A stretch of DNA of 64,000 nucleotides, from assembly GCA_937127285.1 (NCBI GenBank), contig CAKZLV010000055.1, positions 159 to 64,158 on the forward strand, written 5' to 3'. Of the stretch, positions 5,705-61,229 are shown piece after piece. Position numbers and translations under genes: made by a program. The notes under the pieces were generated by a model that did no database searches, had not been told where the DNA came from, and saw nothing but the letters and a program-made list of their open reading frames with translations. This DNA comes from an uncultured Bacteroidota bacterium. Lineage in GTDB: Bacteria; Bacteroidota; Rhodothermia; Rhodothermales; Salinibacteraceae. Within the stretch, counting starts at the first letter, position 1, and every line of letters starts with the position of its first letter.

Positions 5705-6424
5705 ATGAATCCCTCCCGAAATCATTCGACGGAGACGCAAAACGCGCGGATCCTGATCGTAGAGGACGACCCGGAGGTCGGTGATGGACTGGAGGATTTC
5801 TTTTCGATCAAGGGATACAGCGTCTCGCGCGCTGCCGACGGCGAAACGGCCCTGCAGGAAATCACCACCTTGCCGCCGTACGACGTCGTTCTGCTCGACG
5901 TGGTGCTTCCCGAAAAGGACGGCTTCGAGATCCTGCGGGAGGCGCGAAAGGCGGGCGTCGACTCGCCTGTGATTATCCTGACCGTAAAGGGACAGGACAA
6001 GCACAAGCTGCGCGGCTTCGACCTGGGGGCCGACGACTACGTCACGAAGCCGTTCAACGCCGAGGAGCTGGCCGCTCGCGTCCGGGCGGTCCTGAAGCGC
6101 AGCCGCGACGAGGACGATGACGGCAACACATACTCCTTCGGCGACATTACCGTCGACTTTACGAGTCACACCGCCGAGAAAACCGGGGACGACGTCGAGT
6201 TCACCACCCTCGAGTTCGACATCCTGGAGTATTTTATCAACCACCGAGGCCGCACGGTAAGCCGCAAGCAACTCCTGCGAGACGTGTGGGGCATCAGCGG
6301 CGACATCACCACGCGCACGATCGACCGCCACGTCGCCAGCCTCCGCAAGAAGATCGAGACCGATCCCACCGACCCCGAATACATCGAAACCGTGTACGGG
6401 ATCGGGTACAAGTTTACGGGGTGA
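5705..6424 (+). CDS. OmpR/PhoB-family two-component response regulator
   Basis: The receiver domain shows ILIVEDD...VLLDVVLPEKDG...TVKG. The winged-helix output domain shows LTTLEFDILEYF, RTIDRHVASLRKKIE and IETVYGIGYKF. Confidence 0.9.
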   Translation: MNPSRNHSTETQNARILIVEDDPEVGDGLEDFFSIKGYSVSRAADGETALQEITTLPPYDVVLLDVVLPEKDGFEILREARKAGVDSPVIILTVKGQDKHKLRGFDLGADDYVTKPFNAEELAARVRAVLKRSRDEDDDGNTYSFGDITVDFTSHTAEKTGDDVEFTTLEFDILEYFINHRGRTVSRKQLLRDVWGISGDITTRTIDRHVASLRKKIETDPTDPEYIETVYGIGYKFTG

Positions 6425-6581
6425 GGAATGTGGGGGCTGGGGAGGCTTGGGGGCTTTGGACGCTGCGGACGCTTGGGACTCCATTTCTCAATGATCATTG
6501 AGCATTGAACATTGAGCATTGGGCGTGGATCAACGCTCCCCCAACTCTCAACCCTCAACCCTCAACCCACAACTCATCCCC

Positions 6582-8000
6582 ATGCCCACCGTCCAACGCG
6601 GCGACGTCGTCGAGCTGCAAGTTGAGAAGTTTGCCGACGAAGGGAAAAGCCTCGCCCGCGTCGACGGATACGTCGTCTTTGTCGACGGCGCCGTGCCGGG
6701 CGACCGCATCCAGGCGTACATTCACCGCACCAAGAGCAACTACGCCGAGGCCAAACTCGATACCCTCCTCGAACCGAGCGATCTCCGCACGGAACCCCGC
6801 TGCCGCTACGCCGACGAATGCGGCGGCTGCAAGTGGCAGCACGTGCGCTACGACGCGCAGCTCGACAAGAAGCAGCAGAGCGTCGCCGAGGCCTTTCGCC
6901 ACCACAGTGACTTCGAGGAGGTGGACGTGCGGCCGACGATCGGATCCGACCGGCCGCCGTTCTACTACCGCAACAAAATGGATTTCGATTTCAGCGCCGA
7001 CCGGTGGCTGACGCGCGCGGAAATCGACAGCGGGAAGGACTTCGATACCGACTTCGCGCTCGGCCTGCACGTCCCGGGCAATTTCTTCAAGGTGCTCGAC
7101 CTGCAGGAATGCCACCTGCAGTCGGAACTCTCCGCCCGGATCGTGAACGCGACGCGCGACTTCGCGAAGGAGCGCGGCTGGAAGGCGTGGGACATCCGCA
7201 ACCACCACGGCTTCCTCCGCCACCTCGTCATCCGGGAGGGCAAGAAGACCGGGGACGTGATGGTGAACCTCGTCACGAACGGCTACGATGACGCCCGCCT
7301 CGAGGCCTACGGCGCGTTTCTGAAAGCGGAATTTCCGGAGGTCACCACCTACGTCCACACCAACCACACCGGCAAGAGCCAAAACCCCGAAGGCGAGGAG
7401 ACGGTCCTCTTCGGGCCGGGCGTGATCGAGGACGAGATCGGCGACTACCGCTTCGAGATCAGCCCGAGCGCGTTCTTTCAGACGAACACCCTGCAGGCCG
7501 AACGGCTCTACGAGGTGGCCCGCGACTTCGCCGACTTCCAGCCCTCTGATCGCCTCTACGACCTCTACTGCGGCGCCGGCACGATCTCTCTCTTCATGAG
7601 CGGGTACGTGGACGAGGTCGTCGGCGTCGAAATGGTCGAACCCGCCGTCGAGAACGCCCGCGCGAACGCGAAGAAAAACGGGGTCGACAACGCGACGTTC
7701 GTGGCCGGAGACCTCAAGGACGTGTTCACCCCCGCCTTTGTGGAGGCGCACGGCGAACCGGACGTCCTGATCGTGGACCCGCCCCGCGCCGGAATGCACA
7801 AGGACGTCGTCGGACAAATCGCCGACCTGTCGCCGGAGCGCTTCGTCTATGTGAGCTGCAACCCGCAGACGCAGGTCCGCGACCTCGACCGTCTCAACAC
7901 CCTCACCAGCGGCGGCTACCGCATCGACGCCGTCCAGCCCGTCGACATGTTTCCCCACACCCCCCATGTCGAAAACGTCGTGCGCCTCACACGGGTGTAA
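6582..8000 (+). CDS. rlmD: 23S rRNA (uracil-5-)-methyltransferase, RlmD/RumA type
   Basis: It has an N-terminal TRAM domain, the Fe-S cysteines CRYADECGGCKWQH, and a SAM methyltransferase core (DLYCGAGT, VDPPRAG, YVSCNP). Confidence 0.85.
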   Translation: MPTVQRGDVVELQVEKFADEGKSLARVDGYVVFVDGAVPGDRIQAYIHRTKSNYAEAKLDTLLEPSDLRTEPRCRYADECGGCKWQHVRYDAQLDKKQQSVAEAFRHHSDFEEVDVRPTIGSDRPPFYYRNKMDFDFSADRWLTRAEIDSGKDFDTDFALGLHVPGNFFKVLDLQECHLQSELSARIVNATRDFAKERGWKAWDIRNHHGFLRHLVIREGKKTGDVMVNLVTNGYDDARLEAYGAFLKAEFPEVTTYVHTNHTGKSQNPEGEETVLFGPGVIEDEIGDYRFEISPSAFFQTNTLQAERLYEVARDFADFQPSDRLYDLYCGAGTISLFMSGYVDEVVGVEMVEPAVENARANAKKNGVDNATFVAGDLKDVFTPAFVEAHGEPDVLIVDPPRAGMHKDVVGQIADLSPERFVYVSCNPQTQVRDLDRLNTLTSGGYRIDAVQPVDMFPHTPHVENVVRLTRV

Positions 8001-51253: not shown

Positions 51254-54200
51254 TCAGAGCGGCAGGGTCACCTCGAAGGTCGTCCCGTCCCCGTCACGGC
51301 TGTCGACATCGATGGATCCGTCGTAGACCTCCACGGCTCGCTTCACGATTGTCATGCCGAGGCCGGAGCCGTCGGCCCCGCCGACGTTGCCGGCGCGGAA
51401 GAAGGCACGGAAGAGATGCTCCTGGTCGCTCTCCGGAATGCCGATCCCCTCGTCGGCCACGCGAAGCTTCAGGGTGTGGTTTTCCATCTTCCACCGGACG
51501 CGGACGGGGGTGTCGTCGGGAGAGTACTTCAGGGCATTGGACAGCAGGTTGGACAGGATGTGGTGGAGGAGATCGGGGTCGACAGCGATCTCGTCCGGCA
51601 GCCCGATCGTGTCGACCTCGACGGTTCGGTCTACCCCCAGGTGGGCGCAGACCTCGTCGGTAACCTCTCGCTGAAAGCGGTGAGGGTCGACGGGGGCGGG
51701 GGTCGGGGTGTCGTGCTCGGCGTCGAGCTTGCTCGTGGTGATCACGTCGCCGAGCAGGCGCGACATGCGATCGATCTGGCGGTGGATGCGGTCGACGTAC
51801 TTCTTTCGTTTCTCGGGCGACCACTGCTCGAAAAACTCTCCCATCATTTCGGCCGAGGACCGGATCGTGGAGAGCGGCGTCCGGAACTCGTGCGACACCA
51901 TGCTGACGACGCTCGACTTCAGCCGGTTCAGTTCGCGCTCGCGCCGCAGCGCTTCCCGCGTCTGCTGCTCCATGCGCTTGCGCTCGGTGATGTCGTGAAG
52001 CGTCCCCACGATTCCGGACGTGTGCCCGTCGGCCGGTCCGTCCTCCTCGTGCCCCTCCTGGAGCGTCTGGGCAAAGAGCGCCATCCACCGCACCGACCCA
52101 TCTCGCGTTCGCAGCTTCACCTCGCTCCGGCACGAGGACTGCTCTCCACGAAAGACGCCGCACATCTCTTCCAGCTCCGGCCCTTCAAAGTACGCCAGGC
52201 TCGGGTTGCCCGTCGTCTCTTCCACCGGATATCCCGTGAGCGCTTCCCATGCCGGGTTGAGAAAGCTCCAGTGGCCGTCCGCATCGATCTGAAAGACCAC
52301 GTCGCGTACGTTCTCGACGACGGACCGGTACTGCGCCTCGCGCTCGCGAAGGGTTTGCTCGGCCTCCTTGCGGATTAGGGCGTTGGCAAACGTGTCGCCC
52401 AGGACGCGGAGCAGCATGATCGTTTCCGACTCCCAGGTGCGGGGCGTCTCGACGGCGTCGAACCCGGCGAAGCCGATCAGCCGGCGCCCGTTCGACATCG
52501 GGACGAGCACGAGCGACTGGACGCTCTGCGCGTGCAGGACGGCCCGAAGCGCCTCCGCCTCCGGCGGAAGGTCGTCCACGTCGGGCACGTGCACGGCGCT
52601 CTCGGTCCGGAGCCGGTCCATCAACCAGGCGAATCGCTCCTGCGGGACGTTTTGGATCTGGTCGCGGTGCGACGTGATGCCGGGGCCGCACCACTCATGC
52701 GTGTTGCTGAGCGTCTCGGCGTCGTTGTCGAACAGGAACACGTAGCTGCGGTCTGCACCGACGAACGGGCCGATCCGGCCGAGGGCTTCTTCGATGCGCC
52801 GATCGGTAATCCCGGCGTCCATGTCGATGAAGCGCGTCGACAGGTCGACGATCAGGTTCTCGAGCAGGACGCGGTACTCGAGTTTGTCCTGCGCCGCCCG
52901 CCAGTCGGTAATGTTGCGCAAGACCGTCTGCGCGGCGCGTTCGCCGTCGTACCGAATGGGAACGGACTGCGACTCGACGATGCGGGTCTCTCCATCCAGG
53001 CGTCGGACCCGGTACTCGAACGGCTCGGTGGCCCGCCCCGCCTCCAGGTCGGCGAGCCGTTCGTCGACCCGGTCTTCGTATCCGTCGGCCACGAAGTCTC
53101 GCACGGATCGGCCGACCAGGTCGCCCGGCGAGTCGGCCCCCAGCAGGTCGGCCCCACTCGGGTTGATGTAGCGAATCCGTCCGCCGACCGAAATCAAGAT
53201 CGGTTCCATGTGCGTTTCCACGAGCCGGCGCCAGCGCTCCTCGCTCTGCCGCAGCGCCTCCTCCTGCGCCTTCTGGGCGGTCACGTCCACGGCGTACCCG
53301 GCATACCGGTCCGGGCCGGTACCCGTCTCCACATGCCCCGCCACCGAGTGCACCCAGCGGATGGATCCGTCCGGCTGCACGACGCGGTACTCCAGCGTGA
53401 GTTCTCCGTCGCTCCACCCGTTGCGCATGGCCTGCACCACGCGGGGGCGGTCTTCGGGATGGATGGAGGACAAGTAGGCCTCCGGATGCTCGTAGAGCTC
53501 TTCGACGGGCCGCCCCCAGATGCGCTCATAGGCCGGGCTGATGTACAGGTACTGTTCTTTCGTGCGCAGCCAGAAGACGCCCTGCACGTTCTCTGTGACT
53601 TGCCGAAGACGCTTCTCGCTTTCTTGAAGGGCCTTTTCCGCCAGCACGCGATCGGTCACATTGCGGGTCGACACAACCAGCGCGCCTCCGTTGCCTGCAG
53701 CTCCCGCCCCTTCGACCGGCGCCGGCAGGTCGGGCCGATCCGCCCCCGCCCACTTCCGGGAGGTCATTTCGACCCAGACGTAGTGCCCGTTCTTGTGCTG
53801 CAGCCGTGCCCGGCGCTTGACGATTTCTCCGTCGAGCGCCCGGTCGATGTTCGTCCAGGTAGGCGGCCGGTCATCCGGGTGCATCAGTTCGATGCAGGGC
53901 CGGCCGACGATCTCCTCCGGCGGGTAGCCGAGCAGCGCCTGAACGGACGGGGTGGCAAACGTGCAGGTTGTGTCGGCCGTGTGGCGGGTGATGACGTCCG
54001 CTACGTTGTTGACGACGTAGCGGCATTCGTTCTCGTTCACGTCTCGCCCGGAGCGATTGGACGCCGGGTCGGCAGCCGCGGCCTCGGCTCCATCTCCTCG
54101 CGAGGGAGCCGGCACGCCGGTGAGCATCAGCAGCCCGTCCGTTCCCTCGATGCGCTCCGCCCGCCAGTATGAGGGAGCGTCGGGGCGGTCTCCCTCGACG

Positions 54201-54547
54201 GGAGGCAGGTGAGCCTCCGCCGCCCCTTTTCTGCAAACCGTTTGCAGAAGATCGTGTACGCGCCCCCGGCGCACCGGGCCGTACACGTCGGTCAGCGTTC
54301 TCGGCTGCGGTTCGTTGCCGGAGGAGCAGTTGTCCCGGTCGTCTGCCTCCCGAGACGGGGTGTGCGGGACCGGGGACGGGGCAGGAGGCGCGGTACGAGA
54401 CGTCGTTCCGATCACCTGCTCCGCAAAGGCGTCGTTCCACCGGTGCAGCGTTCCGTCCAGGTCTGCGATCGCCGCCGGTTTGGCTACCGCGTCGAGGAGC
54501 GCGGTGCTCACTTTTTGCTCCTGGTCGAGGCGTTCGTGAAGGGACAT
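51254..54547 (-). CDS. Multi-PAS/GAF sensor histidine kinase (no receiver domain)
   Basis: The ORF was trimmed to MSLHERLD. It has at least four PAS/PAC modules, one GAF-like module (GADRSYVFLFD), an H-box (SHEFRTPLSTI) and an HATPase_c domain (LSNALKYSP, DEGIGIP, GSGLGM). Confidence 0.9.
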   Translation of the reverse strand: MSLHERLDQEQKVSTALLDAVAKPAAIADLDGTLHRWNDAFAEQVIGTTSRTAPPAPSPVPHTPSREADDRDNCSSGNEPQPRTLTDVYGPVRRGRVHDLLQTVCRKGAAEAHLPPVEGDRPDAPSYWRAERIEGTDGLLMLTGVPAPSRGDGAEAAAADPASNRSGRDVNENECRYVVNNVADVITRHTADTTCTFATPSVQALLGYPPEEIVGRPCIELMHPDDRPPTWTNIDRALDGEIVKRRARLQHKNGHYVWVEMTSRKWAGADRPDLPAPVEGAGAAGNGGALVVSTRNVTDRVLAEKALQESEKRLRQVTENVQGVFWLRTKEQYLYISPAYERIWGRPVEELYEHPEAYLSSIHPEDRPRVVQAMRNGWSDGELTLEYRVVQPDGSIRWVHSVAGHVETGTGPDRYAGYAVDVTAQKAQEEALRQSEERWRRLVETHMEPILISVGGRIRYINPSGADLLGADSPGDLVGRSVRDFVADGYEDRVDERLADLEAGRATEPFEYRVRRLDGETRIVESQSVPIRYDGERAAQTVLRNITDWRAAQDKLEYRVLLENLIVDLSTRFIDMDAGITDRRIEEALGRIGPFVGADRSYVFLFDNDAETLSNTHEWCGPGITSHRDQIQNVPQERFAWLMDRLRTESAVHVPDVDDLPPEAEALRAVLHAQSVQSLVLVPMSNGRRLIGFAGFDAVETPRTWESETIMLLRVLGDTFANALIRKEAEQTLREREAQYRSVVENVRDVVFQIDADGHWSFLNPAWEALTGYPVEETTGNPSLAYFEGPELEEMCGVFRGEQSSCRSEVKLRTRDGSVRWMALFAQTLQEGHEEDGPADGHTSGIVGTLHDITERKRMEQQTREALRRERELNRLKSSVVSMVSHEFRTPLSTIRSSAEMMGEFFEQWSPEKRKKYVDRIHRQIDRMSRLLGDVITTSKLDAEHDTPTPAPVDPHRFQREVTDEVCAHLGVDRTVEVDTIGLPDEIAVDPDLLHHILSNLLSNALKYSPDDTPVRVRWKMENHTLKLRVADEGIGIPESDQEHLFRAFFRAGNVGGADGSGLGMTIVKRAVEVYDGSIDVDSRDGDGTTFEVTLPL

Positions 54548-55098
54548 GGCCGCCGATCGACTGTTCGGGCAGAATCGGGTTCGAGCAGCACCGGGCCTGC
54601 GAGTGGCTGCGGCAGGGATGCCTTTCATCGGGGTGTGCGGTTAGGAAGTCAAAACTCAAGGAACCGGTCGATGCCGTCAGAAGCAATCGAACCGGCCTCC
54701 TGACGCGGCGGCGCGGCGATCTTCCCACCGTTGTAACGTGTGCGGAATTCGAGGTCGCCCCGAGGAACGCGGCTTCTTCCTCGTCTTTCAGATGGATGTT
54801 CTCGAAGAGTGCCGTCGGCGGCATCGGTCTTCGTCGAACGACATCCGACCGATACCATCTCGACCGACCCTTCTCCCCTTCCGGAGGCGTTGCCGGTGTC
54901 CACCGCAGACGCGTTCCGGCAGGCACCCGCAGTTCCGGCAGGCACCCGCGATCCGGGCATGCGCCCACACTGCGTGCGCCACCGCGTGCGCACCTGATCC
55001 GGGTATCCGCTTGATCCGGGTGTCCGCTCGGGCGCAGGCACTCGCGCGCACCGATCCCTCGAAGCCAGCGTTCTGCAGGAACTTCCCGGCCTGTCCCC

Positions 55099-56778
55099 AT
55101 GCCCGACCCTGATTCTTCGTCTGGCCGCCGCGATGCCGACCTGGACTGGTACCGGCGGCAGTGGGAGGAGCTTCAAGACATTTTGTCCGTCGACCGGGCC
55201 GAGGCCGTCACCGGCCGGGTGCGAGAGCTTCGGCTGGACGCGCTGCAGGACCGAGCCGAGGTATGGGCGGAACAGGCCGAGGGCGGCGACGAGGCGGCGC
55301 GCCGCGTGCTCTCCGAGATCCGCGACCACCTGCGCGCGCTCCGCGACCGGTCCGACGCGCTCGATGCCCTCTGCGATGCCCTCGACGCGCCGGATGCCCG
55401 GACGGCGGCACAACGGGTGCAGGCGCTGAAAGAGGAGCGCGACGACCTGCGCGCTGCCCAGCAGTCGTTTCGGCAGGCCGGCTTCGACGACCCCGAGGAT
55501 GCCCTCGAGATGATCCGCACCATGGAGGCGCAGCTCGACCAGCTCTACGGGGAGAAGGAATCGACCCTGAAGTCGGAACGGCGCGCCGAGGAGATCGCCG
55601 AAAAAGGCGGAACGTTTGAACAGCTGGAGGCGCTGCTCGCCCGCGAGGAGAAGCTCCAGCGCGAACTGGGCATCTCGTCTTCCGACGAGATCATTGCCAT
55701 GGTGAACGGCCTCGTCGACCAACTCGAGGACCTGTACGACCGGCAGGGAGCCGCTCGGCCGGAGTCGGTAAACGGAACGAGCGTGGACGCGCCGTTCGAC
55801 CGGCTGGAGGAACTGCTGGACCGGGAGCAGACGCTCCAGGACGAACTCGGTGTGTCGAGCCCGGACGAGGTCGTTGCGATGGTCCGCGGCCTCACCCGGC
55901 AGCTGGAGGATCTGTACACGGCCCGCGAGCGCCTCGCCCGCGTCAACCTCGACGACGCAGATAGCGTCATCGAGATGGTAAACAGCATGAAAGCGCAGCT
56001 GGAGGTGCTGTACGAGGACCAGGAGCGGCTGTCGAACCAGGGAATCGACGGCGTCGACCACGCCCTGTCGATGATCGAAAGCATGGAGGCGCAGCTGACC
56101 GACCTCTACGAGAAACAGCAAACCCACGGGGCGTCCGACGAGAAGCTTCAGCGCCTGCACGAGCAGTTGGAGTCGCTGCGACGGGAAAAAGAAGACCTGC
56201 TCGAGCGGCGCGAAGCGCTCGAGGCGGAAAATGCGTCGTACGCCCAGACGGTCTCCGCCCTGGAAGACACCCTGGGAACCTCCGACCCGGAAACCATCTC
56301 CAGTCTGGTGGACAGCATGGAGAAGCAGCTCGCCGACGTCTACCAGTCGCAGGAGTCGCCGGCCGACCCGGACGCGACGCCGCCTCCGCCGCTCATCGAC
56401 CGGTCGGACCTGGAGGAGATCGATTCTCGCTCGGCCGAAGAGCTGCACGCCCTGCCGGTCGGCGCCTTCTGCCTGGCGGACGACGGAACGGTGCGCCGGG
56501 CGAACCGTGCCGCCCTACAATGGCCGAGTGCAGAGGCCGCCTCCCCCGACGCGCTGACCGGCCGCGACTTTTTCTTCGATCTGGCGCCGGCAACCAACAA
56601 CCCGCCGTTCCGCGGCCGGTTCTCACGGGGGGTGCGCGAGGAAAATCTGGATACTCGCTTCTCGTACACCTACGTTGCACGAGACGTCCCCCTCACCGGC
56701 TTCGTGGTTCAGATGTATCGCACCGGCGACGACGCCAACTGGATTCTGTTCCAGCCGGTGACGGACCGCTCGCCCTGA
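55099..56778 (+). CDS. Repeat-rich coiled-coil protein with a C-terminal PYP-like PAS domain lacking the chromophore cysteine
   Basis: This 559-aa acidic ORF has six copies of a ~24-aa motif ending Q-L-[ED]-x-L-Y. Its C-terminal ~120 aa are clearly paralogous to the adjacent PYP (FRGRF, FSYTY, NWI), but it reads LAPATNN where PYP reads VAPCTNN. Confidence 0.75.
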   Translation: MPDPDSSSGRRDADLDWYRRQWEELQDILSVDRAEAVTGRVRELRLDALQDRAEVWAEQAEGGDEAARRVLSEIRDHLRALRDRSDALDALCDALDAPDARTAAQRVQALKEERDDLRAAQQSFRQAGFDDPEDALEMIRTMEAQLDQLYGEKESTLKSERRAEEIAEKGGTFEQLEALLAREEKLQRELGISSSDEIIAMVNGLVDQLEDLYDRQGAARPESVNGTSVDAPFDRLEELLDREQTLQDELGVSSPDEVVAMVRGLTRQLEDLYTARERLARVNLDDADSVIEMVNSMKAQLEVLYEDQERLSNQGIDGVDHALSMIESMEAQLTDLYEKQQTHGASDEKLQRLHEQLESLRREKEDLLERREALEAENASYAQTVSALEDTLGTSDPETISSLVDSMEKQLADVYQSQESPADPDATPPPPLIDRSDLEEIDSRSAEELHALPVGAFCLADDGTVRRANRAALQWPSAEAASPDALTGRDFFFDLAPATNNPPFRGRFSRGVREENLDTRFSYTYVARDVPLTGFVVQMYRTGDDANWILFQPVTDRSP

Positions 56779-56891: not shown

Positions 56892-57377
56892 ATGCCTGAA
56901 TCGGAAGAAAAGTACCCGTTTCTCGACAACCCATCGGACGAAGGAACAACGTCCGCCAACGGCCACCGCTCGTCCGGCGAACCGGCAGACCCCGCGCCGT
57001 CTGTCGACGAACTGCACTACGACGACGAGAGCGTCGGCGAAAAGCTTCGGCACGCGACGGACGAGCAGCTCAACGGCGCCAACTTCGGGATTATCCAGAT
57101 TGACGACGACGGCGTCGTTCAGTTCTTCAACGCCTACGAGTCGGAGCTCAGCGGTGTCGACCCGGACGATGCAGAGGGGAACAACTTCTTCACCCAGGTG
57201 GCTCCGTGCACCAACAACCGCCTCTTTCGGGGGCGCTTCAAGAAGGGGGTGCGCCGCGGCGAGCTGGACGAGACGTTTTCCTACACCTACACGTACAAAA
57301 TGCGCCCGACGCTGGTCGACGTCCGGCTCTACCGAGACGAGGCCGGCCACAACTGGATCATGGTCCAAAAGTACTGA
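56892..57377 (+). CDS. pyp: Photoactive yellow protein (with a ~37-aa N-terminal extension)
   Basis: It aligns by eye to Halorhodospira halophila PYP. VAPCTNN contains the chromophore Cys (TGC 57207-57209), the Glu46 equivalent is present (AYESEL), and the C-terminus is NWIMVQKY. Confidence 0.9.
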   Translation: MPESEEKYPFLDNPSDEGTTSANGHRSSGEPADPAPSVDELHYDDESVGEKLRHATDEQLNGANFGIIQIDDDGVVQFFNAYESELSGVDPDDAEGNNFFTQVAPCTNNRLFRGRFKKGVRRGELDETFSYTYTYKMRPTLVDVRLYRDEAGHNWIMVQKY

Positions 57378-58027
57378 CCCCGGCACCGCCGGCTCCCGAA
57401 GGGCCGAATTCGGACGCCGAGTGGGGAGGACCGAGTTCGGGGGCTCATCCGTCCGGCAATTTCGGGACGCACCGCCGGGCGACATCGCTTCGTCCGGACC
57501 GTTGTCCCGCAGCGGGGGTCCCCTCTCCCCCTTCGGATTGCCCCGGCGCGCTGAACCGGCGCGTTAAAGCCGGCGCGCTGACACCGACGAATGGGGGCGA
57601 ATGGGGACGAGTTGATCCGACGCGTCTCCCCGCGGGTCGTGCGTCCCGAGCGAGGCCCGGGAGCTCCTCGTGGGCGGTCGCCTTGCTGTCCGCCGCGCAA
57701 CCGGGGCCCCGGCAGGTGACACGTTGCTGTAACGGATGGATGTCTCCTCCGGTACGCCCGGTACTTGCGAGGCAGTCAACCGTTGTGGGTATCACGAGGG
57801 GGAGAAACGCGCCCGCCTCGGCACCAGCCTGTGCAGACTCGACAGCGGCACGGATCGTCGAGAAACCACCGTAGAGAAACCCACGAGAAACCCACGGGTC
57901 GGGTGCGGGCGAAGCCGCCCACGGGACGGCGCTCGGCACGACGCACGGCGGCGCTCTGGCTGCCGCCGTCCACGTCCTGCTGCTCCTTTTCGTACGCATC
58001 CCTGATGATTTCCTCCGGAGTTCGAGT

Positions 58028-59587
58028 ATGATGAGAAGGAACGGGACGACAGGAGCTCCGGACCCTTCCGGGTCTCCGCGCACCACCGCAAGCCCCGAGG
58101 CCGTGGAGGCCCTGGAGGAGGCGCTGGACCGGTGCGGTTCTCCCGGGGAGCCGCCCTCCGAGAATCCATGGAAATCACTTCTCTTCGACCGGCTGTGCGA
58201 CCGCGCCCTTCCCGCTACGATCTGGAAGGGAAACATCACGCCGGCTGCCTCGCTCTGGACGGGGTCGCGGCTCTGGACGCAGGCCTTCCGCAGCGGGGGC
58301 TTGGAGGCAGGGGACCGGCTCGTCATCGCCCTGCCGTCCAACACGACGTTCGTCCAGGTGCTCCTCGCCGCCATCTGGCAGGGCTGCACCGTGTGCCTCG
58401 TGCCGCCCTCCGAGGACGTAGACGCCGCCTGCGAGGAATTGGACGCCCGCGCCGCCGTGGCTGAGGAGCCGGGCCCTCACGTCTGGACGCCTGAAGGCTA
58501 CGCCGGCCCGCGCACCACGCCGGACGCGCTTCGCTCCGTCTCGGCCGGCCGCACCCCGTCCGTGCGCTTTCTGATGCGCACCTCGGGCACCACCGGCCTG
58601 GCGCGGTGGGTCGCCCTCTCCGACCGGAACGTCCTCTCCGTCCTGCGGAGCCACCTCCCCCACTTCCGCCTGAACGACGGCCGGGTGCTGTCGGTGCTGC
58701 CCTGGACGCACGCGTTCGGGCTCATCCTCGACTTCTTTCCCGCCCTGCTCGCCGGCGCCGAAATCATCCGTGCCCCCGAAGGCGGTCGCTCGCCCCGCAA
58801 GCTGCTGAAGCTGAGCGAGGCCTGGGGGTCGACGCACCTCTCCACCGTCCCCCTCGTCATCGAACGGCTGCTCGCCTGTGACGGCGGCGAAGCCCTTCTG
58901 AGGAACCTGCAGGGCGGCATCGTCGGGGGAGCCCCCGTCTCGGGGCCGATGGCCGAGAAGCTCAGCGAGACGCGCCTGCGGGCCGGATACGGCCAGACCG
59001 AAGCGTCTCCCGGCATCGCTCTCGGAGAACCGGGGCACTGGGAGGCCAACTACCTCGGCCGTCCCGTCGGCTGCAGCGTGGACGTCGCCCCCGACGGCGA
59101 ACTGCTCTTCAGCGGAGACAACGCCTGCGTCGGCTTCTGGGAAGACAGGGGCCTGCACCGGGCCGACCCCCAGCGAACGGTGCGCACCGGCGACCTCGTC
59201 CGGCGCGACGGCGACCATCTCTTTTTTCGCGGGCGCAAGGACGACGCCTTCAAGCTGTCCAACGGCCGCCTCGTTCAGGCCAGCGCCTGCGAGGCCGAGA
59301 TCAAGAACAGCTTTCCGACGCTCCACGACGCCCTGCTCTTTACCCACAACGGCCGCGACCTGACGCTGGCCGTGTGCCCGTCGCAGGACGCGCCGGACGC
59401 GGACCGCCCCTCCGACGAGGCGCTTCTTTCTGCCCTCGGGTCGCTGGCGGCGCGCACCGACCGGGTGGTTTCGGTCTCCCCGGACGAGTGGGTCTCCACT
59501 CCGAAGGGGGCCGTCGACCGGTCGGCCATGATCGAAACCCTCACCGCCGACCTGCCGGCCGCCTCCCGAGCAGCCCGCTGGTCGTGA
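58028..59587 (+). CDS. pcl: AMP-dependent synthetase/ligase, probable p-coumarate-CoA ligase
   Basis: It has the adenylation motifs MRTSGTTGLAR, GYGQTE, and TGDLVRRDGDHLFFRGRKDD. Its position between pyp and the ammonia-lyase matches known PYP chromophore clusters. The start is uncertain. Confidence 0.8.
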   Translation: MMRRNGTTGAPDPSGSPRTTASPEAVEALEEALDRCGSPGEPPSENPWKSLLFDRLCDRALPATIWKGNITPAASLWTGSRLWTQAFRSGGLEAGDRLVIALPSNTTFVQVLLAAIWQGCTVCLVPPSEDVDAACEELDARAAVAEEPGPHVWTPEGYAGPRTTPDALRSVSAGRTPSVRFLMRTSGTTGLARWVALSDRNVLSVLRSHLPHFRLNDGRVLSVLPWTHAFGLILDFFPALLAGAEIIRAPEGGRSPRKLLKLSEAWGSTHLSTVPLVIERLLACDGGEALLRNLQGGIVGGAPVSGPMAEKLSETRLRAGYGQTEASPGIALGEPGHWEANYLGRPVGCSVDVAPDGELLFSGDNACVGFWEDRGLHRADPQRTVRTGDLVRRDGDHLFFRGRKDDAFKLSNGRLVQASACEAEIKNSFPTLHDALLFTHNGRDLTLAVCPSQDAPDADRPSDEALLSALGSLAARTDRVVSVSPDEWVSTPKGAVDRSAMIETLTADLPAASRAARWS

Positions 59588-59735
59588 TCGCACCGCCGCG
59601 CGACGGGTCGGGCGGCCGCAGGATTCGTCCACCGGCCCGCGCTCCGTGCCGTCGCTGCCCCCCGGCCGCCGATGCCGGATTCCTCCTTGGTCCCGGTCCC
59701 CCCTTTGGTTTCCCCTCACCGCCCCCTCTGCCCTC

Positions 59736-61229
59736 ATGTCGACGCCCGTGTTCCTCGGTCCCGACGTCTGCTTGACTGCAGAGGACGTGGAGACGGTGGC
59801 CCGCAGCGCGTCGTGCTGCGTGGAGCGAACGGAGGCTGCCGCCGCCGGCATGCAGCGGGCCCGGGAGGCCCTGGGCGAGGTGGAGCGGAGCGGGGCGCCC
59901 ATCTACGGCGTCACCACCGGGTTCGGAGCGCTCGTCGATCATGCCTCGGAGGGCTCGTCAGCCGACCACGCAACCGGCCTTCTGCATCACCTCACGACCG
60001 GCTCCGGCCCCCCGGCCGATCGATCCGTCGTGCGAGCGATGATGCTGGCCCGGCTTCAGGCCCTCGCCCAGGGACGATCCGGCGTCCGCCTCTCCGTCTT
60101 CGACGCCCTGGCATCGCTGATCAACGCATCGATCACGCCGGACGTCCCGGAGATCGGCTCCCTCGGGGCGAGCGGAGACCTCACCCCCCTCGCGCACGTC
60201 GCGCAAGTGGTTGCCGGTGACGGATCGGTGCGCGCGCCGGACGGCAGCCCTGCCCCCGCCAGCGACGCACTTGCCGAAGCCGGCCTGGAGCCGGTGTCGC
60301 TGGACGGACGCGACGCCCTCGCCCTGGTAAACGGAACCGCGTTCATGACGGGGCTGGCCAGCCTGGCCCTCGTGCGGGCCGAGCGCTTGATGCGGCGGGC
60401 CGAAGCGCTCACCGGCTGGGCCTACCGTCTGCTCGGCTGCTCGCTGGAGCCGCTCGATGCCGTCCTGCACGACGCTCGCGGGCATGCCGGGCAGGCCGCC
60501 AGCGCCGCAGCCATCCGCGACGAGGCGCTCCGCGACGGATCCATCCCCGAGGCCGACCGGCCGCTGCAGGAAGCATACTCGCTGCGGTGCGCCCCGCAGA
60601 TCCTCGGCGCGGTGCGCGAGCAGCTGCAGTACGTGCGGTCCCTCACCGAAACCGAACTGAACGGCACGAACGACAACCCCGTCATCGATCCCGACGGCCC
60701 CCGCGTCATCCACGGCGGCAACTTTCAAGGCCAGCAGGTGGCCTTCGCCGCCGACGCACTCAACGCCGCCATCACGCAGGTCGGCGTCCTGGCAGAGCGG
60801 CAACTGGACCTCTTGCTCACGCCGCAGCGCAACGGCGGCGCACCGCCCCTGCTCGCCTGGCGTCCGGGGCCGACGAGCGGCCTGGCCGGCGCGCAATTGA
60901 CAGCCACCTCCCTCGTCGCCGAACTGCGGCACGACGCCCAGATGAGCGCCACCTTCTCCATTCCCACCAACGGCGACAACCAGGACGTCGTGTCGATGGG
61001 AGCGATGGCGGCCCGCCGCGCCTACGAGCAGACCGACCACCTCGCCCCCATCCTGGCCATTCTGAGTCTGGCCCTGACCCAACTGACCCACCTGCGCCGG
61101 GCAGGACGCGCCGACGGGCCCGCTCCCGCCCCTCCCCCCTGGATGCCGGACGTCGAGCCCGTCGTAGACGACCGGCCGCTCCGCTCCGACATTGCCGACC
61201 TCGCCGAGCGGTGGCTCCACCCCGACTAA
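59736..61229 (+). CDS. tal: Aromatic amino acid ammonia-lyase, probable tyrosine ammonia-lyase
   Basis: The ORF was trimmed to MSTPVFLG. It has the MIO-forming GASGDLTPLAH (Ala-Ser-Gly) and NGTNDNPV. LLHHLTTGSG puts His-Leu at the substrate-selectivity position. Confidence 0.85.
   Translation: MSTPVFLGPDVCLTAEDVETVARSASCCVERTEAAAAGMQRAREALGEVERSGAPIYGVTTGFGALVDHASEGSSADHATGLLHHLTTGSGPPADRSVVRAMMLARLQALAQGRSGVRLSVFDALASLINASITPDVPEIGSLGASGDLTPLAHVAQVVAGDGSVRAPDGSPAPASDALAEAGLEPVSLDGRDALALVNGTAFMTGLASLALVRAERLMRRAEALTGWAYRLLGCSLEPLDAVLHDARGHAGQAASAAAIRDEALRDGSIPEADRPLQEAYSLRCAPQILGAVREQLQYVRSLTETELNGTNDNPVIDPDGPRVIHGGNFQGQQVAFAADALNAAITQVGVLAERQLDLLLTPQRNGGAPPLLAWRPGPTSGLAGAQLTATSLVAELRHDAQMSATFSIPTNGDNQDVVSMGAMAARRAYEQTDHLAPILAILSLALTQLTHLRRAGRADGPAPAPPPWMPDVEPVVDDRPLRSDIADLAERWLHPD

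What the first reader, a model, noticed from the sequence alone, without database searches (positions are those of the whole stretch)
55486..56352. Six-fold ~24-aa repeat (D-x-[DE]-x-[IV]-x-x-M-[IV]-x-x-[ML]-x-x-Q-L-[DE]-x-L-Y) of unknown family
The following six segments recur every ~45-50 residues:
- DPEDALEMIRTMEAQLDQLY
- SSDEIIAMVNGLVDQLEDLY
- SPDEVVAMVRGLTRQLEDLY
- DADSVIEMVNSMKAQLEVLY
- VDHALSMIESMEAQLTDLY
- DPETISSLVDSMEKQLADVY

Two units are part of a longer ~44-aa duplication (FEQLEALLAREEKLQRELGISSSDEIIAMV... against FDRLEELLDREQTLQDELGVSSPDEVVAMV...). This is a regular helical repeat module, not simple low complexity. I cannot assign it to a known repeat family.
Basis: seen in the sequence. 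Interest (0 to 1): 0.6.

Follow-up and report, generated by a model that had tools for sequence, protein, structure and literature searches.

The report
Helical-hairpin repeat linked to PYP photoreceptors
The six-fold repeat is real and belongs to an undescribed helix-loop-helix module that, from 60-residue mini-proteins to 1,200-residue arrays, is encoded directly upstream of photoactive-yellow-protein (blue-light sensor) genes in at least eight bacterial lineages, which makes it a testable candidate for the sensor's long-missing signalling partner.

Summary
ORF 55099-56778 (+, 559 aa) carries six copies of a ~34-aa unit, consensus LLRELGVSDPDEAVEMIESMEAQLEDLYEERERL. The motif is found 6 times, against at most 1 in 20,000 shuffles. 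Spacing is 32-78 residues, not a regular 45-50. Pfam, NCBIfam and PDB hold no matching family.

The C-terminus is a PYP-fold domain in which all three chromophore residues are lost (Y42A, E46A, C69A). The gene opens an operon-like row: repeat/PYP-like, true pyp, pCL-type ligase, TAL-type lyase.

The new result is that the unit is a PYP-linked module well beyond this family.
- A unit profile found 395 cluster representatives among 1.84 billion proteins.
- Of six unfused hits checked in context, five sit immediately upstream of a Cys-bearing pyp.
- 63 of 80 clade-B-type pyp loci carry such an ORF. The lineages include Salinibacteraceae, Ignavibacteria, Kapaibacterium, Myxococcota, Armatimonadota, Planctomycetota, Gemmatimonadota and a Janthinobacterium MAG; a Leptospiraceae member came from the protein search, without locus context.
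- In whole genomes the profile hits only pyp-adjacent ORFs, and 0 of 299 phylum genomes outside the family.
- The minimal form is a ~60-aa helical hairpin (AF2 pLDDT 94) under purifying selection.

My best reading is a PYP-docking adaptor or scaffold (about 0.5, inferred; no binding data). An earlier first-stage note covers this same stretch; no note on other DNA describes the repeat.

The parts
55099..56778 (+). Gene for the 559-aa repeat / PYP-like protein (P0001): N-terminal helical region with six hairpin units, plus a C-terminal chromophore-less PYP domain
   Evidence: ORF list and translation; 111 homologues of the same architecture; AF2 model
55471..55563 (+). Repeat unit 1 (aa 125-155; core DPEDALEMIRTMEAQLDQLY)
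   Evidence: Unit HMM, 44.9 bits; loop at 127-131 in the AF2 model
55654..55749 (+). Repeat unit 2 (aa 186-217; LQRELGISSSDEIIAMVNGLVDQLEDLY). It is part of the 42-aa duplication, aa 172-213
   Evidence: Unit HMM, 46.0 bits; duplication 27/42 identical
55834..55935 (+). Repeat unit 3 (aa 246-279; LQDELGVSSPDEVVAMVRGLTRQLEDLY). It is the second copy of the duplication, aa 232-273
   Evidence: Unit HMM, 54.4 bits
55930..56031 (+). Repeat unit 4 (aa 278-311; RLARVNLDDADSVIEMVNSMKAQLEVLY), 32 residues after unit 3
   Evidence: Unit HMM, 47.4 bits
56026..56124 (+). Repeat unit 5 (aa 310-342; RLSNQGIDGVDHALSMIESMEAQLTDLY), 32 residues after unit 4
   Evidence: Unit HMM, 52.4 bits
56260..56358 (+). 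Repeat unit 6 (aa 388-420; LEDTLGTSDPETISSLVDSMEKQLADVY)
   Evidence: Unit HMM, 41.7 bits
56419..56757 (+). C-terminal PYP-fold domain (aa ~441-553) lacking the chromophore triad: Y42->A, E46->A, C69->A (FFFDLAPATNN)
   Evidence: TIGR02373 at 1.1e-14 but 54.6 bits against a cutoff of 143; Foldseek to PDB PYPs E 2.5e-10, TM 0.86; phmmer to 1mzu/PYP E 5e-14 with residue alignment
56892..57377 (+). True pyp gene (P0002, 161 aa; FFTQVAPCTNN with the chromophore Cys). It lies 113 bp downstream on the same strand
   Evidence: TIGR02373 at 7.9e-31, PF00989; no terminator-like site on the + strand between the two genes
58028..59587 (+). AMP-binding ligase (candidate p-coumaroyl-CoA ligase, pCL)
   Evidence: PF00501 at 2.2e-29; same position in L010 and L011
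59646..61229 (+). Aromatic amino-acid ammonia-lyase (candidate TAL)
   Evidence: PF00221 at 4.5e-141
51254..54628 (-). Divergently transcribed PAS/GAF histidine kinase. It keeps this position in relatives, where it is paired with an OmpR-type regulator
   Evidence: Pfam PAS x several, GAF, HisKA, HATPase_c; synteny in L010 and L011

Best explanation
The six units are tandem copies of an undescribed helix-loop-helix ('QLxxLY hairpin') module. Its ancestral, minimal form is a ~60-residue protein encoded immediately upstream of clade-B pyp genes.

Each unit consists of three parts: the end of one helix (...L-x-x-E-L-G), a 4-5-residue loop or N-cap (V-S-x-P-D/E), and the first five turns of the next helix (a-[IV]-x-M-[IV]-x-S-M-E-x-Q-L-x-x-L-Y-x-E-[RK]-E). 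That helix shows an a/d heptad stripe widened by flanking hydrophobic residues, plus an invariant Gln and Tyr.

I infer that the hairpin is a protein-docking element of the PYP signalling apparatus. It would bind the co-expressed PYP, or bridge PYP to a second conserved neighbour, 'protein X'. Protein X is sometimes fused to CheW-like domains or to the repeats themselves.

In Salinibacteraceae the hairpin has been multiplied: 6 copies here and about 12 significant units in the 1,225-aa paralogue on contig C213. It has also been fused to a PYP domain that can no longer bind p-coumaric acid. The result would be a multivalent, light-blind scaffold. Its dummy PYP domain and hairpins would assemble the real PYPs, and light would change that assembly and pass the signal to the adjacent histidine kinase/response regulator, or to chemotaxis proteins in other phyla.

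Shown: the repeat, its helical hairpin prediction, the dead PYP domain, the gene linkage, the fusions, and purifying selection. Inferred: physical binding to PYP, light dependence, and the output.
For: - **The repeat is real and conserved in position.**
- **Structure.** AF2 of the full protein gives an all-helical N-terminus with loops at the conserved Gly and a confident PYP fold at 441-553. AF2 of the minimal family gives a two-helix model at pLDDT 94.4.
- **Operon context.** The order is repeat gene, pyp, pCL, TAL. Longibacter salinarum and a MAG have the same order. The own genome has a second locus: a 1,225-aa repeat/PYP-like protein followed by two Cys-bearing PYPs.
- **Search from the repeat side, which is unbiased with respect to PYP.** A unit profile against 1.84e9 proteins gave 395 hits. 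Six unfused hits were examined in context, and five are directly followed by a Cys-bearing pyp gene, 53-123 bp downstream.
- **Whole-genome specificity.** The profile hits only the pyp-adjacent ORF in four other genomes, and only the two pyp-adjacent ORFs in the own genome. It hits 0 of 299 genomes of the phylum outside the family.
- **Search from the PYP side.** 63 of 80 clade-B-type pyp loci have a repeat ORF just upstream on the same strand, including 26 of 29 outside Salinibacteraceae.
- **Homology of the small family and the window's units.** hhalign gives 99% probability, E 3.5e-18.
- **The small ORFs are real genes.** pN/pS is 0.00-0.12 in six close pairs.
- **Fusions.** Repeats are fused to a PYP-like domain (this family), to protein X (P0179, L015 6890-8044, L095 3659-5260) and to an NrsF anti-sigma membrane domain (P0194). 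Protein X occurs in 58 ORFs of these loci, and in two cases it carries a CheW-like domain above the Pfam cutoff.
- **Literature.** PYP's partner is still unidentified except for Rc-PYP/PBP (bioRxiv 10.1101/2021.06.01.446672; PMC9664959). The domain-based operon survey lists no such protein (PMC12826048).
Against: - There is no binding, expression or phenotype data of any kind.
- The 80 pyp loci were retrieved with patterns taken from PYPs that already sat next to repeat genes. The 79% figure therefore applies to that PYP subclade only. Clade A and C PYPs, including H. halophila, were not examined.
- 14 of 51 Salinibacteraceae/Rhodothermales pyp loci lack an adjacent repeat gene; 11 of these have protein X divergently upstream instead. 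One repeat protein (P0161, L017) has no pyp on its 8.6-kb contig.
- The full-length AF2 model has pTM 0.35 and pLDDT 46-69 across units 2-5, so the packing of the units is unknown. Hairpin packing in the small model is assumed from the two-helix prediction and was not inspected in coordinates.
- Heterologous holo-PYP production is reported with TAL and pCL alone (PMC12826048, section 8). The hairpin is therefore not needed for chromophore attachment, but that says nothing for or against signalling.
Confidence: 0.5

Rival explanations
1. The repeat forms a structural coiled-coil or filament protein, for example a polar or array-anchoring scaffold. It would be co-regulated with pyp but would not contact PYP. 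The repeat then only sets length and self-association.
For: The helix shows a heptad a/d pattern with long helices of 22-46 residues. Weak sub-threshold similarities to SMC and coiled-coil models appear. Unit number varies widely, from 2 to about 14.
Against: A generic structural protein would not be confined to pyp-adjacent ORFs in every genome tested. It would also not shrink to a 47-60-aa hairpin while keeping invariant Gln and Tyr. Fusion to a PYP-like domain and to protein X argues for a role inside the PYP system.
Confidence: 0.2
2. The hairpin is a maturation or stability factor for PYP. It would hold apo-PYP for chromophore loading by pCL or protect it, which would explain the shared operon with pCL and TAL.
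For: The gene lies in one row with pyp, pCL and TAL here and in Longibacter. L019 has TAL nearby, and L017 has an AMP-binding gene nearby.
Against: Most unfused hairpin-pyp pairs outside Salinibacteraceae have no pCL or TAL in the locus. They instead have protein X, HDOD, CheW-like or MCP genes. Holo-PYP forms heterologously with TAL and pCL only (PMC12826048, section 8). A 6-14-fold array fused to a chromophore-less PYP domain is hard to reconcile with a chaperone.
Confidence: 0.1
3. The protein is itself a sensor. The altered pocket of the Cys-less PYP domain would bind another ligand, or sense redox or salt, and the repeats would be a passive dimerising stalk, as in many PAS proteins. The linkage to pyp would reflect gene duplication only.
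For: Neofunctionalised Cys69-less PYP domains have been proposed for methylobacterial Ppr (PMC9664959). The PYP-like domain is modelled with pLDDT above 90 and is conserved.
Against: This does not explain why unfused hairpin proteins without any PAS domain keep the same position upstream of pyp in seven other lineages.
Confidence: 0.12

Closest known systems
Photoactive yellow protein family (TIGR02373; clade B of Xing et al. 2022, PMC9664959)
   Same: The C-terminal 110 residues have the PYP fold and PYP-specific sequence: Foldseek TM 0.86, phmmer E 5e-14 to PDB PYPs. Orthologues from Longibacter salinarum (WP_098074757.1, 564 aa; WP_098074762.1, 1096 aa) are already listed in that paper's data set as clade-B homologues with substituted pocket residues.
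   Different: Tyr42, Glu46 and Cys69 are all Ala, and the score is far below the family cutoff. The 430-residue repeat region, which is the actual finding, is not part of any PYP description. The 2025 survey (PMC12826048) excluded Cys-less proteins.
PBP, the PYP-binding protein of Rhodobacter capsulatus (RCAP_rcc01067; bioRxiv 10.1101/2021.06.01.446672)
   Same: It is a small acidic protein encoded next to pyp. It is the only experimentally supported PYP partner, and it binds in a light-dependent manner as an oligomer.
   Different: PBP has 142 residues and is predicted to have N-terminal helices plus beta-sheet. The hairpin module is all-helical, with a ~34-aa repeat unit (minimal form a ~60-aa protein), and is associated with clade-B PYPs.
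Generic antiparallel coiled-coil / helical-hairpin repeats (spectrin-type repeats, GvpC 33-aa repeats, HAMP)
   Same: Alpha-helical, with heptad-like hydrophobic spacing. The minimum period of 32 residues is close to that of the GvpC repeat.
   Different: No Pfam model of these families matches at E<=1; a HAMP match in the paralogue is below cutoff. The signature G-x-S-x-P-D...M-[IV]-x-S-M-E-x-Q-L-x-x-L-Y is distinct. The unit is two helices, not three, and spacing is variable.
Small partner proteins of other bacterial photoreceptors (e.g. PixE for the BLUF protein PixD; recalled from general knowledge, not tested here)
   Same: The concept is the same: a stand-alone sensor domain signals through a separately encoded small protein from the neighbouring gene, forming light-sensitive oligomers.
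   Different: The folds and families are unrelated, and no biochemical data exist for the hairpin.

Membership tests
Photoactive yellow protein (TIGR02373), for the C-terminal domain | PAS fold with PYP-type sequence | tested here: met
   Foldseek to 7spv/2qj7/2phy E ~1e-10, TMt 0.86, rmsd 2 A; phmmer to 33 PDB PYP sequences, best E 5.1e-14
Photoactive yellow protein (TIGR02373), for the C-terminal domain | Cys69 for the thioester link to p-coumaric acid | tested here: not met
   FFFDLAPATNN aligns to vaPCTN of 1mzu, so Cys is replaced by Ala. None of 111 homologues has Cys at this site
Photoactive yellow protein (TIGR02373), for the C-terminal domain | Tyr42 and Glu46 hydrogen-bonding the chromophore | tested here: not met
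   'rrANRAA' aligns to 'hrYNRtE' of 1mzu, so both positions are Ala
Photoactive yellow protein (TIGR02373), for the C-terminal domain | Score at or above the curated NCBIfam cutoff (143 bits) | tested here: not met
   54.6 bits
Any described repeat or domain family (Pfam-A, NCBIfam), for the repeat | Significant match of residues 120-420 to a curated model | tested here: not met
   Only sub-threshold coiled-coil noise appears (KIF21A, Mod_r, SMC etc., all below cutoffs). The small hairpin proteins also have no hit
Spectrin / GvpC / HAMP-type helical repeats | Family-specific profile match and characteristic unit length (106 aa three-helix, 33 aa, or 50 aa four-helix-bundle unit) | tested here: not met
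   These models give no match at E<=1 for P0001. HAMP scores 22.8 bits, below the cutoff of 25, in the long paralogue only. The unit is a two-helix junction spaced 32-78 residues
Proposed new family: pyp-linked QLxxLY helical hairpin | Signature ...Q-L-x-x-L-Y-x-E-[KR]-E-x-L-x-x-x-L-G-x-[SD]-x-x-x-x-[IV]-x-x-[ML]-[IV]-x-S-[LM]-E-x-Q-L-x-x-L-Y | tested here: met
   hhalign of the small-protein alignment A4 against unit alignment A2: 99.0%, E 3.5e-18. Against the full-length family it maps to residues 136-215
Proposed new family: pyp-linked QLxxLY helical hairpin | Encoded immediately upstream of a Cys-bearing pyp gene on the same strand | tested here: met
   In the window the gap to pyp is 113 bp. 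The same holds in 63 of 80 loci. Genome-wide hits are confined to such ORFs
Rc-PYP binding protein PBP | Sequence homology to RCAP_rcc01067 | not testable with these tools
   The sequence is given only as an image in the preprint's supplement, and no R. capsulatus record is in reach

The most novel reading that the evidence does not exclude
The QLxxLY hairpin, alone or in arrays, together with the co-located 'protein X', is the direct downstream partner of clade-B photoactive yellow proteins, that is, the missing first step of PYP signal transduction. The Salinibacter-type protein would be a multivalent light-blind scaffold whose dummy PYP domain and hairpins organise several PYPs into a light-switchable assembly that feeds a histidine kinase or chemotaxis proteins.
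Probability: 0.4. Interest if true: 0.9.

Novelty: new variant of a known kind. Interest (0 to 1): 0.78.

Why it matters
PYP is one of the best-studied photoreceptors in biophysics. Even so, papers up to 2026 still say that its signalling partner is unidentified (PMC9664959; PMC13250908; bioRxiv 10.1101/2021.06.01.446672). Published neighbourhood and fusion surveys rely on annotated domains. They therefore cannot see a 60-residue unannotated hairpin gene or an unannotated repeat region.

The tight, cross-phylum linkage found here names concrete proteins to test for light-dependent binding: the hairpin, its arrays, and protein X. The organisms include tractable non-pathogens such as Leptospira biflexa-type saprophytes and Janthinobacterium.

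If binding is confirmed, the system would give a first mechanism for clade-B PYP output. It would also supply a compact light-controlled protein-protein pair for optogenetics. It would further explain why Salinibacteraceae keep chromophore-less PYP paralogues.

Tried and rejected
- **Known families.** Pfam-A and NCBIfam scans of P0001, the long paralogue, ten unfused repeat proteins, four mini-proteins and protein X gave no family for the repeat.
- **PDB.** A PDB sequence search with the unit profile gave nothing significant. Foldseek of the full model matched only through the PYP domain. Foldseek of the hairpin model gave no match below E 3.
- **HAMP, spectrin, SMC and GvpC readings.** All rejected, because they are sub-threshold or absent.
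- **FtsZ-repeat fusion P0110.** I set it aside as a probable chimeric 2.7-kb contig or gene call. It was not pursued.
- **Comparison of protein X or the hairpin with Rc PBP.** Not possible, because the sequence is only an image.
- **Wider homologues of protein X.** The word-indexed search returned only 10 close relatives and no names.
- **Literature searches.** Searches for PYP with 'coiled', 'repeat' or 'helical hairpin' gave nothing relevant.
Full report
**1. What is at the coordinates**

The finding lies inside one ORF, window 55099-56778 on the + strand, which encodes 559 aa (P0001). All six quoted segments are present. They end at Tyr150, 213, 273, 305, 337 and 415.

The degenerate core [ML][IV]..[ML]...L..[LV]Y occurs six times in residues 1-440. 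It occurred at most once in 20,000 shuffles, and in only 6 of them at all.

The spacing is 63, 60, 32, 32 and 78 residues, so the repeat is not regular at 45-50.

I built an ungapped profile from 345 distinct units taken from homologues. Its consensus is LLRELGVSDPDEAVEMIESMEAQLEDLYEERERL. Gln23 is invariant, although it was not part of the motif I used to collect the units. Gly6 is present in 80% of units, and hydrophobic residues fall at 13/17/20/24/27/(31)/34, which is a heptad a/d stripe.

Pfam-A and NCBIfam have no model for this region. A unit profile finds nothing significant among PDB sequences.

**2. The protein as a whole**

AlphaFold2 on a 77-sequence alignment gives mean pLDDT 75.5 and pTM 0.35. 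It models residues 11-418 as helices only. The breaks fall exactly at the conserved Gly-x-Ser-x-Pro-Asp of each unit: 127-131, 190-194, 251-254, 282-286, 315 and 393-396. Each unit is therefore the end of one helix, a short loop or N-cap, and the first ~20 residues of the next helix. The variable helix length (22-46 residues) explains the variable spacing. Confidence is low (46-69) across units 2-5, so the way the helices pack is not known.

Residues 441-553 are modelled with pLDDT above 90 as a PAS domain. That domain superposes on crystal structures of photoactive yellow protein (Foldseek E 2.5e-10, TM 0.86) and matches them by sequence (E 5e-14).

In that alignment the three residues that hold p-coumaric acid (Tyr42, Glu46, Cys69) are all Ala. 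None of 111 homologues has the Cys. The NCBIfam PYP model scores 54.6 bits against a cutoff of 143. The domain is therefore a PYP homologue that cannot be a PYP-type photoreceptor.

Orthologues from Longibacter salinarum are already listed as 'hypothetical protein' among clade-B PYP homologues with substituted pocket residues in the data set of Xing et al. 2022. Neither that paper nor the 2025 survey, which kept only Cys69-bearing proteins, mentions the N-terminal region.

**3. Neighbourhood**

A true pyp gene follows 113 bp downstream on the same strand (56892-57377; FFTQVAPCTNN; TIGR02373 at 8e-31). After it come an AMP-binding ligase (58028-59587) and an aromatic ammonia-lyase (59646-61229). 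These are the enzyme types known to make and activate the chromophore.

No terminator-like site lies on the + strand between the repeat gene and pyp. A PAS/GAF histidine kinase is transcribed divergently upstream.

The same order occurs in Longibacter salinarum and in a 588-kb MAG contig. There, a longer paralogue with two more pyp genes and an OmpR-type regulator lie directly beyond the kinase.

The window's own genome has that second cluster on another contig. It holds a 1,225-aa protein with about 12 significant units and a Cys-less PYP-like end (FFLQVAPSTNN), then two Cys-bearing pyp genes, then a 275-aa degenerate relative.

**4. The repeat outside this family**

A profile of 106 diverse units was run against 1.84 billion representative proteins. 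It found 395 proteins at E<=0.001. Most of the large hits are repeat/PYP-like fusions with 4-13 units and no Cys. The others lack any PAS domain.

One group of these is 200-440 aa and carries many copies of the second-helix motif (S-L-x-E-Q-L-x-x-L-Y-A-E-K-E). Another consists of dozens of 47-95-aa proteins that hold exactly one and a half units.

I looked up the genomic context of six unfused hits. Five are followed, 53-123 bp downstream on the same strand, by a Cys-bearing pyp gene. The sixth sits on an 8.6-kb contig without pyp but beside an HDOD gene, as in one of the others.

Going the other way, I fetched 80 pyp loci from named genomes using an alignment of these PYPs. Of these, 63 have an ORF with repeat units that ends just upstream of pyp on the same strand.
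- Salinibacteraceae and other Rhodothermales: 37 of 51.
- Elsewhere: 26 of 29. These are Ignavibacteria, Kapaibacterium, a Janthinobacterium MAG, Myxococcaceae/Myxococcota, Polyangiaceae, Fimbriimonas/Armatimonadota, Planctomycetota, Gemmatimonadales and a Spirochaetaceae MAG.

A Leptospiraceae member is annotated 'hypothetical protein'.

This second count is biased. The loci were retrieved with peptide patterns typical of PYPs that already had such neighbours, so it describes that PYP subclade only. Clades A and C were not sampled.

**5. Specificity controls**

- In four whole genomes reached through those loci, the profile hits only the ORF beside pyp. A fifth genome had no hit.
- In the window's own 3.85-Mb assembly, all 18 hits lie in the two pyp-adjacent ORFs.
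- In 300 other genomes sampled evenly across the phylum, only one matched at E<=1e-4. That one is from the same family, so 0 of 299 outside the family matched.

**6. The minimal module**

The 37-sequence alignment of small proteins has invariant Q-L-x-x-L-Y twice and a near-invariant loop Gly. AlphaFold2 gives helix 2-33, a four-residue break and helix 38-60, at mean pLDDT 94.4. It has no structural neighbour in the PDB below E 3.

Profile-profile comparison with the window-type units gives 99.0% probability, E 3.5e-18. Against the full-length family it aligns to residues 136-215, which are units 1-2.

Six pairs of closely related loci give pN/pS of 0.00-0.12 over the last 60 codons. These short ORFs are therefore protein-coding and constrained. 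None matches Pfam or NCBIfam.

**7. A second linked family and fusions**

A ~145-aa helical protein, here called protein X, recurs in these loci. Its motif is ...E-L-Y-R-x-x-x-F-x-W-L-E-L-K-x-E-W-x-R-Y-N-Q... An HMM from four seeds hits 58 ORFs in the fetched loci.
- In unfused systems it is usually just downstream of pyp.
- In Salinibacteraceae it is divergently upstream of the long paralogue, or upstream of pyp genes that lack a repeat neighbour. In the own genome it is at L009 2560-2994 (-).
- It occurs as the N-terminal domain of 480-580-aa proteins. Two of these carry a CheW-like domain above the Pfam cutoff.
- It is fused to hairpin repeats in P0179, L015 6890-8044 and L095 3659-5260.

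GAF-HAMP-MCP, HDOD and CheA-like genes are frequent further neighbours. One protein joins two units to an NrsF anti-sigma membrane domain. Protein X has no Pfam or NCBIfam match.

**8. Interpretation**

These points are shown:
- a real, conserved helix-loop-helix repeat;
- a dead PYP domain;
- strict genetic linkage of the hairpin module to pyp in many lineages;
- fusion of the module to PYP-like, X and anti-sigma domains;
- purifying selection.

From this I infer, at about 0.5, that the hairpin is a docking element of the PYP signalling apparatus. I also infer that the Salinibacter-type protein is a multivalent, light-blind scaffold that organises the co-expressed PYPs. Its output would go through the neighbouring two-component system, or through chemotaxis proteins in other phyla.

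There are three rivals:
- a purely structural coiled coil (0.2);
- a PYP maturation factor (0.1);
- a sensor in its own right with a passive stalk (0.12).

None of the rivals explains as well why the PAS-less mini-proteins keep the same position beside pyp.

The only experimentally supported PYP partner is PBP of Rhodobacter capsulatus. It is also a small acidic product of the neighbouring gene.

**9. Limits**

- The packing of the repeat units is not resolved.
- The PYP-side statistic is subclade-specific, and related genomes are not independent observations.
- The literature check covers only the held library.

**10. Verdict**

The repeat is an undescribed family. Its value lies in the pyp linkage, which turns the long-standing question of PYP's downstream partner into a direct experiment. 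Earlier first-stage notes on this window (e1-3867048, e1-3867050) agree on the architecture and the neighbourhood.

Noticed in passing
L009 2560-2994 (-) (own genome, contig C213); also L014 9643-10083, L012 6039-6500 (-), and 58 ORFs across L010-L099: 'Protein X' is an unannotated ~145-aa helical protein (motif ELYRS..F.WLELK.EW.RYNQ) that recurs beside pyp across phyla. It is sometimes the N-terminal domain of 480-580-aa proteins with a CheW-like end, and sometimes it is fused to hairpin repeats. No copy was found in the 64-kb window itself.
   Followed up: partly
L009 4045-7722, 7818-8450, 8485-8976, 9077-9904 (own genome, contig C213): This is a second PYP cluster in the same genome. It holds a 1,225-aa paralogue with ~12 units and a Cys-less PYP-like end, then two Cys-bearing pyp genes, then a 275-aa ORF that looks like a degenerate relative of the repeat family. 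An OmpR-type regulator follows on the opposite strand.
   Followed up: partly
L022 ~6400-7496, L024 ~6400-7510, L026 6443-7552 (Salinibacter sp. and Salinivenus MAGs); compare window 57378-58027: In a Salinibacter sp. MAG (L022) and two Salinivenus MAGs (L024, L026) a third, ~355-aa repeat protein lies directly downstream of pyp. It has 3 units and a strongly degenerate PYP-like end. The window has a 650-bp gap with no convincing ORF at the same place between pyp and the ligase gene, possibly the remnant of a lost gene.
   Followed up: partly
P0194 (294 aa, 1.7-kb metagenome contig): Two hairpin units are fused to an NrsF (negative regulator of sigma F) membrane domain (PF06532, 1.3e-18). This hints that the hairpin can serve as the cytoplasmic input of an anti-sigma factor.
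   Followed up: no
L018 1493-6524: A hairpin-repeat gene plus pyp sit directly after a gas-vesicle cluster (GvpL/F, G, A, K) and an Hpt/HATPase kinase. This is another pyp-gvp juxtaposition, here with the hairpin family.
   Followed up: no
P0110 (568 aa, 2.7-kb metagenome contig): This is an apparent FtsZ (PF00091/PF12327) fusion to four hairpin units. It is probably a chimeric contig or a read-through gene call.
   Followed up: no
P0202, P0208, P0234, P0199, P0179 C-termini: Some mini-hairpin proteins carry a conserved ~20-residue beta-looking tail (..VVIEGNRITITGPKKIFVRK..), including the Leptospiraceae member.
   Followed up: no
window 56892-57377 (P0002): In the true PYP, the position aligned to Tyr42 is Phe (VVQFFNAYESE), while most related clade-B PYPs keep Tyr (..FYNRYESE..). 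Glu46 and Cys69 are kept. It has a ~40-residue acidic N-terminal extension.
   Followed up: no
G261 C1:2943525-2943617 (-) (same family as the window's genome): A complete genome of the same family shows only one unit hit, in a 159-aa frame. This suggests a short unfused form also exists within the family.
   Followed up: no
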